A stretch of DNA of 64,000 nucleotides. Source: a virus. Its lineage: Duplodnaviria; Heunggongvirae; Uroviricota; Caudoviricetes. The stretch's first letter is position 1; every line of letters starts with the position of its first letter. Shown here in pieces: positions 13,165 to 13,692 of this stretch. The notes beneath the pieces were generated by a model, which made no database searches, was not told where the DNA came from, and saw only the letters and a program-made list of their open reading frames with translations. Made by a program: the position numbers and the translations under genes. Location of the stretch: positions 31,358 through 95,357 of IMG/VR virus record IMGVR_UViG_3300032046_004423; one strand, written 5' to 3'.

Positions 13165-13692
13165 GTGATTAGAGTTGAGAAGGTATGGGAAGGAATAAGA
13201 TCCGAGGGGCTTAACTACGGTTTACCTACAACATTCCTTAAGTTAGGACCCGGTCCGGATTACAACTCAGAGGATCTGGTTAAAGAAATACTAATGCAGA
13301 CCAGATGTAAGTGGGTATGTATACTTGGTGAAAGTACAACTCAGATTGGTATTGGGACACTAGTTAAGGGCTTATCTACAGTTGGAATGTATATTGAGGT
13401 TGAGGTTGGTGGCTCCATAAAGGATCCAGGCTGGCTACATACTGTTGATAGATGGTTAGTTGACTATGTTAAGGAACCTACTTTTAACTATGGGGCACTG
13501 AGAACCCAGGATATGATTAGATTTGTGGTTGAAGGCAGAGGAGATTTGAATTTTGCTATTTCAGGTTTCGAGGAACTGAAGTTATTCCCAGGTACTAAGT
13601 TTATTAGATTAACGGATAGTGAACTAGAGAATGAAGCTTTTGCCTTAGTTAGGAAATATGACCGTTCAAGACTATATGAGGAAAGAAGGTAA
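13165..13692 (+). CDS. QueE-like pseudo-paralog lacking all Fe-S cysteines
   Basis: [29 protein letters not shown] parallels the real QueE [31 protein letters not shown], but the cysteines are replaced. [11 protein letters not shown] corresponds to [27 protein letters not shown] to [17 protein letters not shown], and [12 protein letters not shown] to FVVGSKEDLNFA. Confidence 0.6.
   Translation: [175 protein letters not shown]

What the first reader, a model, noticed from the sequence alone, without database searches (positions are those of the whole stretch)
13165..13692. Cysteine-less QueE pseudo-paralog
The ORF 13165..13692 is collinear with QueE along its whole length. [22 protein letters not shown] matches [31 protein letters not shown] matches [27 protein letters not shown] matches [29 protein letters not shown] matches FVVGSKEDLNFA.

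Every radical-SAM cluster cysteine is substituted (GCNL..C..C becomes [10 protein letters not shown]), and the SAM-binding GGEP is GEST. It therefore cannot be a radical-SAM enzyme.

Possible roles are a substrate-binding or chaperoning pseudoenzyme for the deazaguanine pathway, a scaffold partnering the intein-interrupted QueE, or an inhibitor of host QueE.
Basis: seen in the sequence. Interest (0 to 1): 0.6.

Follow-up and report, generated by a model that had tools for sequence, protein, structure and literature searches.

The report
Cluster-less QueE paralogue in phages

Summary

It is not a decaying copy. It belongs to an unnamed family of at least 134 sequences, with 76 of the 150 best 50%-identity cluster representatives cysteine-less. 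The family forms one clade and is under purifying selection (dN/dS about 0.05-0.14).

It was found only on uncultured viral contigs of one lineage. Those contigs always carry FolE, QueD and a DpdA-like gene, plus a real QueE wherever enough downstream sequence is held. The conserved order is psQueE, Cas4-like nuclease, QueD.

The cluster loop with all three cysteines and the Mg-binding Thr is deleted. GGEPL, TN, the carboxylate-clamp Arg and the C-terminal QxHK are lost. Gln13 is universally replaced by Arg, while two pocket glutamates remain.

So it cannot be a radical-SAM enzyme and probably does not bind CPH4 as QueE does. Function is inferred only. My best guess is a remodelled ligand-binding accessory of the deazaguanine module.

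The parts
13154..13160 (+). Shine-Dalgarno sequence AAGGAGG, 4 nt upstream of the GTG start. It overlaps the end of the upstream RNase H-like gene, whose stop TAA is at 13161..13163.
   Evidence: Read directly from the sequence.
13165..13692 (+). psQueE: a 175-aa cysteine-cluster-less QueE paralogue with a complete QueE-type partial barrel.
   Evidence: The N-terminus is conserved from residue 1 in 47 homologues.
13198..13200 (+). Arg12 codon, at the position of QueE's substrate-contacting Gln13/14. It is Arg in 132 of 134 family members.
   Evidence: The role of Q13 is taken from PMC11142719.
13246..13257 (+). G28-P-G30-P, the site where the [4Fe-4S] loop ([12 protein letters not shown] in the real QueE) has been deleted.
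13324..13338 (+). L54-G-E-S-T58, the remnant of the SAM-binding ITGGEP motif.
13396..13413 (+). E78-V-E80-V-G-G, the counterpart of QueE's E-I-E-T-N-G. Both Glu are kept and T/N are lost. E80 corresponds to B. multivorans QueE Glu116.
   Evidence: E15 and E116 are described as active-site glutamates in PMC8124187.
12654..13163 (+). Upstream RNase H-like gene. This neighbour varies among relatives.
   Evidence: Pfam RVT_3 and RNase_H; synteny.
13695..13877 (+). 60-aa hydrophobic small ORF between psQueE and the nuclease. It is absent or replaced in relatives.
13877..14839 (+). Cas4-like PD-(D/E)xK exonuclease. Its likely start is GTG at 13877, with GGAGG upstream. It follows psQueE in 23 related loci.
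   Evidence: PHROG Cas4-domain exonuclease 2.9e-15; PADLOC Cas4.
23552..23905 (+). QueD (CPH4 synthase).
   Evidence: Pfam PTPS 1.1e-32.
24714..26561 (+). The real QueE, interrupted by an intein inserted just before the third cluster cysteine (CSW | C...HN | CDT).
   Evidence: The spliced sequence matches B. subtilis QueE at E=1.5e-17 over its full length.
6011..6580 (+). FolE (GTP cyclohydrolase I).
   Evidence: Pfam 4e-46.
6682..7419 (+). Probable DpdA-like transglycosylase. The matches are weak.
   Evidence: NCBIfam DpdA 6.7e-5 and PADLOC DpdA 1.1e-4, both far below cutoff.
3525..4286 (+). Canonical QueC.
   Evidence: Pfam QueC 2.2e-64; TIGR00364 above its cutoff.
9178..9615 (+). QueF (preQ0 reductase).
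   Evidence: Pfam QueF 6.8e-25.

Best explanation
SHOWN: The gene encodes a folded, expressed-looking QueE descendant that is under purifying selection. It has lost the [4Fe-4S] loop, the SAM motifs, the Mg ligand and most CPH4 contacts. It is a hallmark of one lineage of uncultured viruses. Those viruses also encode FolE, QueD, a real QueE, usually QueC and QueF, and a DpdA-like protein. This gene set is the one used to put 7-deazaguanines into DNA.

INFERRED: It does a non-radical, SAM-independent job inside that module. The residues kept across the whole family map onto the loops that line QueE's active site:
- a universal Arg12 replacing Gln13;
- Glu78 and Glu80, where Glu80 corresponds to B. 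multivorans Glu116;
- new Gly-rich loops G28xG30 and G62xG64;
- an inserted Asn108.

I therefore think it is a remodelled ligand-binding protein. It would hold an anionic small molecule of the pathway, such as a carboxylated pterin or deazapurine intermediate or a nucleotide, in a new orientation. It would act as a binding, hand-over or regulatory subunit rather than as the CDG synthase. That it is a cluster-less QueE paralogue is about 0.95 certain. The functional part is about 0.35 certain.
For: - Paralogy and fold.
- Family size, conservation and monophyly: 47 close homologues. Of the 150 best cluster representatives, 76 are cysteine-less and 160-200 aa long. An NJ bipartition separates all 134 cysteine-less sequences from 65 QueE.
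- Purifying selection: dN/dS is 0.05-0.14 where dS is measurable, and 18 loci have no internal stops.
- Co-occurrence: every locus with enough downstream sequence has a true QueE, QueD, FolE and the DpdA-like gene. This holds in all three subfamilies.
- Pocket remodelling rather than random decay: R12 is 132/134, E78 is 127/134 with the rest Asp, D116 is 130/134, N108 is 117/134 and G62 is 0.96.
- Precedent in the same pathway: DpdL is a phage QueD paralogue that lost the catalytic Cys and is proposed to act on CDG (PMC10516641).
Against: - No ligand, partner or activity was tested, and no coordinates were available to inspect the pocket.
- The clamp position (QueE R27/28) is acidic in the distant subfamilies, and E14 is lost there. 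Only Arg12 is a universal new polar residue, which is thin for a defined binding site.
- The gene is not adjacent to QueE. It sits next to a Cas4-like nuclease.
- All carriers belong to one viral lineage with conserved gene order. Co-occurrence with the deazaguanine genes is therefore phylogenetically non-independent.
Confidence: 0.35

Rival explanations
1. Non-catalytic partner of the real QueE. The dead paralogue would heterodimerise with active QueE and stabilise or tune it, or alter its reductant or partner interactions. This would resemble enzyme-pseudoenzyme pairs such as QTRT1/QTRT2 or Dph1/Dph2. That QueE is a homodimer and that these pairs exist is my own knowledge.
For: It always coexists with a true QueE. 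It keeps the whole QueE scaffold, including the shared helix motif LVKGL and core residues W50, P88, W90, W97, R113, D116 and R169. It is 32% identical to its own QueE.
Against: The two genes are never adjacent; they lie 3-11 kb apart. psQueE diverges faster than QueE, reaching 26-27% versus 38% identity in the most distant loci. The dimer interface could not be mapped because the QueE structure papers are not held. No complex prediction was possible.
Confidence: 0.2
2. Accessory of the adjacent Cas4-like exonuclease or of the replication-recombination module. For example, it could couple nuclease action to the modification state of DNA, with no role in making the base.
For: psQueE is followed by the Cas4-like nuclease in 23 related loci plus the window. 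The two genes overlap by 13 nt in the most distant subfamily and are 3 nt apart in L001. The surroundings are UvrD helicase, RNase H, PolA and PolB.
Against: Small ORFs are freely inserted between the two genes: 60-147 aa, and at least 1 kb in L026. The nuclease is as tightly linked to QueD on its other side, so this may be plain synteny. The family pI is about 6.2, so it is not an obvious DNA binder.
Confidence: 0.15
3. A new cofactor-independent enzyme on the QueE scaffold. It would use polar chemistry on a pterin or deazapurine, or on modified DNA, and would produce a further 7-deazaguanine derivative.
For: Two acidic pocket residues are retained (E78, E80), and a universal Arg and Asn are added. 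The same lineage also carries second, divergent copies of QueC and of the DpdA-like gene, which hints at a second branch of the pathway. DpdL is a precedent (PMC10516641).
Against: There are very few universally conserved polar residues. Pocket residues differ between subfamilies: E14, G55, E56 and D100 are not kept in the distant ones. No chemistry is suggested by any database match.
Confidence: 0.15
4. A host-directed moonlighting protein. It might block cell division, as over-produced E. coli QueE does independently of catalysis, or interfere with host QueE.
For: The division-blocking role of E. coli QueE does not need catalysis: R27A still causes filamentation (PMC11142719).
Against: That function depends on an enterobacterial-specific region near the cluster pocket (PMC11142719). 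This is exactly the region deleted here. No host is known, and no copy was found in 185,579 species genomes.
Confidence: 0.08
5. A decaying, non-functional duplicate (pseudogene).
For: All catalytic motifs are lost.
Against: The ORF is intact with a strong SD. There are 134 homologues with invariant positions. dN/dS is 0.05-0.14. The AF2 model is confident. The gene is retained across subfamilies that are only about 20-25% identical.
Confidence: 0.02

Closest known systems
QueE, 7-carboxy-7-deazaguanine synthase (radical SAM; B. subtilis 5tgs/5th5, E. coli 6nhl, B. multivorans 4njg; phage-type QueE such as the window's own)
   Different: It has no cluster loop or cysteines, no Mg-binding Thr, no GGEPL, no T-N ribose motif, no conserved Lys of the DxK strand, and no C-terminal S-P or QxHK. 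Gln13 is Arg and the clamp Arg is not conserved. It is about 50-65 residues shorter. It scores 19 bits against a QueE model whose cutoff is 300.
DpdL (phage QueD paralogue, proposed CDG decarboxylase; Cui et al. 2023, PMC10516641)
   Same: It is a phage-encoded paralogue of a preQ0-pathway enzyme that has lost the catalytic cysteine. It sits among deazaguanine DNA-modification genes and is presumed to be retooled for another step.
   Different: The parent enzyme and fold differ: T-fold QueD versus radical-SAM barrel. DpdL phages lack QueC, whereas here the full pathway is kept, including the parent enzyme. No GenBank phage carries psQueE.
Enzyme/dead-paralogue pairs such as QTRT1/QTRT2 (eukaryotic queuine TGT) and Dph1/Dph2 (from my own knowledge, not tested here)
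   Same: A catalytically impaired paralogue is maintained alongside the active enzyme of a nucleic-acid or protein modification pathway.
   Different: No evidence here of a physical complex, and the genes are not adjacent.
E. coli QueE as a moonlighting cell-division inhibitor (PMC11142719)
   Same: It shows that a QueE scaffold can have a catalysis-independent function.
   Different: That function uses an enterobacterial insertion near the cluster site, which is deleted in psQueE.
Small radical-SAM activases (PFL-AE 3c8f; NrdG-like)
   Different: They retain CX3CX2C and SAM binding, and no sequence similarity was detected.

Membership tests
QueE (CDG synthase) | QueE-type partial beta/alpha barrel with an N-terminal hairpin | tested here: met
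QueE (CDG synthase) | Three cysteines (CXnCX2C) ligating the [4Fe-4S] cluster | tested here: not met
   The loop is deleted: these columns are 100% gaps in 134 members. No other conserved Cys set exists; the median is 2 Cys, and the only frequent ones are C52 (57%) and C48 (37%).
QueE (CDG synthase) | SAM-binding motifs (GGEP(L); E-T-N-G ribose motif; the strand with S136 in E. coli / DxK in phage QueE) | tested here: not met
   GGEPL becomes G-E-S with a 2-residue deletion. T108 and N109 become variable. K129 (1.00 in QueE) is variable. Residue roles are from PMC11142719.
QueE (CDG synthase) | CPH4 contacts Q13, E15 and R27 plus the C-terminal QxHK | tested here: not met
   Q is replaced by R in 132/134. 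E is kept only in the close subfamily (75/79 versus 0/55). The R27 position is K/R in 41/79 close members and D/E in 36/55 distant members. QxHK is deleted.
QueE (CDG synthase) | Mg2+-binding Thr after the third Cys (T40 in E. coli) | tested here: not met
   Deleted together with the cluster loop.
QueE (CDG synthase) | Reaches the curated family score | tested here: not met
   TIGR04349 scores 19.4 bits against a cutoff of 300. Pfam Radical_SAM gives no hit.
QueE (CDG synthase) | Converts CPH4 to CDG | not testable with these tools
   Needs an enzyme assay or queE complementation. A negative result is predicted.
Pseudoenzyme / retooled dead paralogue | Clear homologue of an enzyme that lacks its catalytic residues | tested here: met
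Pseudoenzyme / retooled dead paralogue | Maintained by purifying selection | tested here: met
   dN/dS is 0.05-0.14 and the ORFs are intact. Invariant columns are seen.
Pseudoenzyme / retooled dead paralogue | Coexists with the active paralogue | tested here: met
   A true QueE is present in the window and in L001, L003-L010, L017, L021 and L024.
Pseudoenzyme / retooled dead paralogue | Truly lacks any catalytic activity | not testable with these tools
   A new non-radical activity cannot be excluded.
Phage 7-deazaguanine DNA-modification module (Dpd-type) | DpdA transglycosylase plus the preQ0 pathway genes in the same genome | tested here: inconclusive
   [quoted passage not shown] DpdA is supported only by weak matches for 6682..7419 (E about 1e-4). 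No fold confirmation was done.

The most novel reading that the evidence does not exclude
psQueE would be the first radical-SAM barrel shown to have been converted into a cluster-free, SAM-independent protein with a new activity. It could be an enzyme or a specificity factor that makes, hands over or reads a not-yet-described 7-deazaguanine derivative in the DNA of an uncultured virus lineage. It might work with the second QueC-like and second DpdA-like paralogues that the same genomes carry.
Probability: 0.2. Interest if true: 0.8.

Novelty: new variant of a known kind. Interest (0 to 1): 0.55.

Why it matters
Phage 7-deazaguanine DNA modifications protect against restriction, and new derivatives and enzymes are still being found (PMC10516641). 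Several steps remain unassigned.

A conserved, selection-maintained QueE descendant stripped of all radical-SAM machinery is a concrete candidate for a missing accessory or new step. It would also be an unusual example of a radical-SAM fold surviving without its cluster.

The family of 134 or more sequences has no Pfam, PHROG, NCBIfam or PADLOC model and no name in any source. Defining it would improve annotation of these viral genomes and prevent such genes being mislabelled as QueE.

Tried and rejected
**Searches that found nothing**
- Pfam gave no hit, PHROGs gave only a 0.07 E-value match to an unknown family, and PADLOC gave none.
- PDB sequence searches with the single protein and with the family profile gave nothing significant. 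Only the fold search worked.
- tblastn of three subfamily representatives against 50,697 GenBank phages gave no match.
- Scans of 185,579 species genomes found no copy, so there is no prophage or host clue.
- IMG/VR held only one locus.
- The afdb50 fold library was unavailable. BFVD returned only true viral QueEs.

**Papers not held**
- The QueE structure papers (Dowling 2014, Grell 2019, Bruender 2017) are not held. The dimer interface and exact ligand contacts could therefore not be mapped. Residue roles came from PMC11142719, PMC5347944 and PMC8124187.

**Ideas considered and rejected**
- Pseudogene: rejected by dN/dS and conservation.
- An alternative Fe-S site built from other cysteines: there is no conserved Cys set.
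- A basic DNA-binding protein: pI is about 6.2, the same as QueE.
- Dependence on the QueE intein: relatives have intein-free QueE.
- A natural fusion that might reveal a partner: only P0214, a MazG-like N-terminus fused to psQueE on a single 2.6-kb contig, which is probably an assembly or frameshift artefact.

**Not attempted**
- A mirror-tree analysis, because it would have too little power with about 12 taxa.

Full report
**1. The observation**

ORF 13165..13692 (+) is real. It is 175 aa long with a GTG start. AAGGAGG lies 4 nt upstream of the start, and the upstream gene's stop lies between them. No terminator-like site separates it from its co-directional neighbours.

That larger ORF is a QueE interrupted by an intein...THCSW | CLVDG...CHN | CDTAY.... 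Once spliced, it matches B. subtilis QueE end to end (E=1.5e-17).

The similarity between the two ORFs is well beyond chance:
- BLASTP against the spliced QueE gives 32% identity over 155 columns, E=6e-15.
- A 47-sequence family profile aligns residues 10-154 with QueE 11-200 at 98.4% probability.
- AlphaFold2 with the family alignment gives pLDDT 94.2 and pTM 0.88.
- Foldseek's best PDB hits are QueE from B. subtilis, E. coli and B. multivorans.

**2. What it is**

It is not an isolated degenerate copy.
- The word-indexed search found 47 full-length homologues at 50-100% identity. All are about 175 aa long, none has a Pfam domain, and none is named.
- They share 18 invariant positions and lack the cluster cysteines.
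- An exhaustive profile search of 1.84 billion cluster representatives found 202 hits. Of the best 150, 76 are cysteine-less proteins of about 160-200 aa or fragments of such proteins. These fall into a close subfamily and two more distant ones. True QueEs of 200-260 aa with CxnCxxC and GGEP begin only at about E=1e-13.
- In a joint alignment, an NJ tree has one bipartition that separates all 134 cysteine-less sequences from 65 QueEs. This is consistent with a single origin.
- Where synonymous divergence is not saturated, dN/dS is 0.05-0.14. None of 18 orthologous ORFs has an internal stop.

**3. What was lost and what was kept** (residue roles from PMC11142719, PMC5347944, PMC8124187)

Lost:
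- The whole cluster loop, with all three Cys, the following Asp and the Mg-binding Thr. These columns are 100% gaps.
- GGEPL, which becomes G-E-S with a deletion.
- The T-N of E-T-N-G.
- The invariant Lys of the DxK strand.
- The S-P motif.
- The C-terminal Q-x-H-K.

Changed:
- QueE's Gln13/14 is Arg in 132 of 134 members.
- The carboxylate-clamp Arg27/28 is K/R in only 41 of 79 close members. It is Asp or Glu in 36 of 55 distant ones.
- Glu15/16 is kept only in the close subfamily (75/79 versus 0/55).

Kept:
- The Gly, Pro, Trp and hydrophobic core.
- E78 and E80. E80 corresponds to B. multivorans Glu116, an active-site glutamate.
- R113, D116 and R169.

New family-specific conserved residues:
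- R12, N17, G28, G62, G64, and an inserted N108.

By homology, these conserved positions lie on the loops at the C-terminal ends of the strands and on the N-terminal hairpin. This is the former active-site face. I could not check this in three dimensions because model coordinates are not exposed.

There is no alternative conserved Cys set, and the pI is unremarkable at a median of 6.2.

**4. Context**

The window is a phage genome segment. The identical protein P0001 lies on a 109.6-kb contig.

| Gene | Coordinates | Evidence |
|---|---|---|
| QueC | 3525..4286 | Pfam 2.2e-64 |
| FolE | 6011..6580 | Pfam 4e-46 |
| DpdA-like (weak) | 6682..7419 | NCBIfam and PADLOC, E about 1e-4 |
| UvrD-like helicase | 8253..9191 | Pfam |
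| QueF | 9178..9615 | Pfam 6.8e-25 |
| RNase H-like | 12654..13163 | Pfam |
| psQueE | 13165..13692 | this report |
| Cas4-like exonuclease | 13877..14839 | PHROG 2.9e-15 |
| QueD | 23552..23905 | Pfam 1.1e-32 |
| QueE | 24714..26561 | |
| NADAR | 26592..27029 | Pfam 5.9e-32 |
| MazG-like | 27352..27750 | Pfam |
| Second DpdA-like paralogue | 28804..29490 | related to 6682..7419, E=0.002 |
| Divergent second QueC | 29513..30226 | Pfam 4.4e-14 |
| UDG-PolA fusion | 33937..36270 | Pfam families recorded for the orthologues; tblastn DNA polymerase |
| PolB | 37247..38917 | Pfam family recorded for the orthologues |

I fetched 31 related loci from metagenomes covering all three subfamilies and mapped the window's proteins onto them.
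- Every locus with enough downstream sequence carries a true QueE of 227-241 aa without an intein. These are L001, L003-L010, L017, L021 and L024.
- QueD, FolE and the DpdA-like gene are likewise present wherever the sequence reaches.
- The order psQueE, Cas4-like nuclease, QueD is conserved in 23 loci. The spacing between psQueE and the nuclease ranges from a 13-nt overlap to about 0.6 kb filled by unrelated small ORFs.
- In L026, at least 1 kb of small ORFs follows psQueE before the contig ends.

No cultured phage in GenBank has the gene. The PolA of this virus is below 30% identical to any GenBank phage polymerase. No copy exists in 185,579 species-representative genomes. One family member comes from a marine sediment metagenome.

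**5. How it most likely works**

It is shown that the protein cannot bind a cluster through the canonical site and has lost QueE's SAM and Mg ligands. Radical chemistry is therefore excluded. QueE-style binding of CPH4 is unlikely because the clamp Arg and the C-terminal His motif are gone.

The rest is inferred. The family's conserved residues concentrate on the old active-site face and include a universal new Arg. The gene is also retained only in genomes with the deazaguanine pathway. I therefore favour a remodelled small-molecule-binding accessory of that pathway (about 0.35). It would bind, hand over or sense an anionic intermediate or nucleotide.

The rivals are:
- a non-catalytic partner of QueE (0.20);
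- an accessory of the neighbouring Cas4-like nuclease or of recombination (0.15);
- a new cofactor-free enzyme (0.15);
- a host-directed moonlighter (0.08);
- a pseudogene (0.02).

Co-occurrence is not independent evidence, because all carriers belong to one syntenic lineage.

**6. Comparison with known systems**

The protein works from a QueE scaffold but fails every functional membership criterion of QueE. It scores 19 bits against TIGR04349, whose cutoff is 300.

The closest conceptual precedent is DpdL. DpdL is a phage QueD paralogue that lost its catalytic cysteine and is proposed to be a CDG decarboxylase (PMC10516641). My literature searches found no description of a cysteine-less QueE paralogue.

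**7. Verdict**

The feature is real and is an unnamed, conserved family. I rate it as a new variant of a known kind, with interest 0.55. The function is unresolved but directly testable.

Noticed in passing
window 17170..17670 (+), upstream of 18049..19350: The ORF-poor 0.9 kb before a TROVE/Ro60-vWA gene (Pfam TROVE 2.4e-15) holds three direct-repeat units of about 80-95 nt. Each folds into a terminal stem with compensatory changes (AUGGGU/UCCCAU, ACUGGU/UCCAGU, GUGGAU/UUCCAC). Each also has a conserved internal loop UAGUGAAGA...CUUGUUCU and a variable upper stem. They look like three tandem Y-RNA-like genes next to a phage Ro60 orthologue. There are no Rfam or tRNA hits.
   Followed up: partly
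window 24714..26561 (+): The real QueE carries an intein of about 376 aa with an HNH-like region. It is inserted exactly before the third [4Fe-4S] cysteine (CSW|C...HN|CDT). Two metagenomic QueEs, P0148 (493 aa) and P0150 (551 aa), carry an insertion that starts at the same site.
   Followed up: partly
window 3525..4286 and 29513..30226 (+): There are two QueC paralogues, one canonical (above the TIGR00364 cutoff) and one divergent (31.7 bits against a cutoff of 150). Relatives carry one or even two copies of the divergent type, as in L001. This is possibly a QueC*-like or otherwise repurposed enzyme (PMC13329287).
   Followed up: partly
window 6682..7419 and 28804..29490 (+): Two weakly related proteins (BLASTP E=0.002, same PHROG 19058). 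The first gives weak DpdA matches. Both are conserved across the lineage, one after FolE and the other just before PolA. This may be a pair of DNA transglycosylase paralogues.
   Followed up: partly
window 33937..36270 and 37247..38917 (+): A PolA whose orthologues in related loci carry an N-terminal uracil-DNA-glycosylase domain is followed by a family-B polymerase (DNA_pol_B_2 in the orthologues). The genome therefore encodes two replicative-type polymerases. The PolA is below 30% identical to any GenBank phage polymerase.
   Followed up: no
window 26592..27029 and 27352..27750 (+): A NADAR-domain protein lies immediately after QueE, and a MazG/PRA-PH-like pyrophosphohydrolase lies nearby. 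In a distant relative a small MazG-like ORF sits directly upstream of psQueE. On one 2.6-kb contig it is fused to psQueE (P0214), which is probably an artefact.
   Followed up: no
L004 13749..16719; L007 14762..19197: Relatives of the second psQueE subfamily carry clusters of glycosyltransferases, an NDP-sugar epimerase, a nucleotidyltransferase, and in L004 a weak AglB-like oligosaccharyltransferase match. These lie downstream of the deazaguanine genes. They might point to sugar hypermodification or to an archaeal host.
   Followed up: no
window 9871..10101 (+): A small 76-aa ORF has a CxxC...CxxC zinc-ribbon-like motif and a C-terminal run of nine Asp.
   Followed up: no
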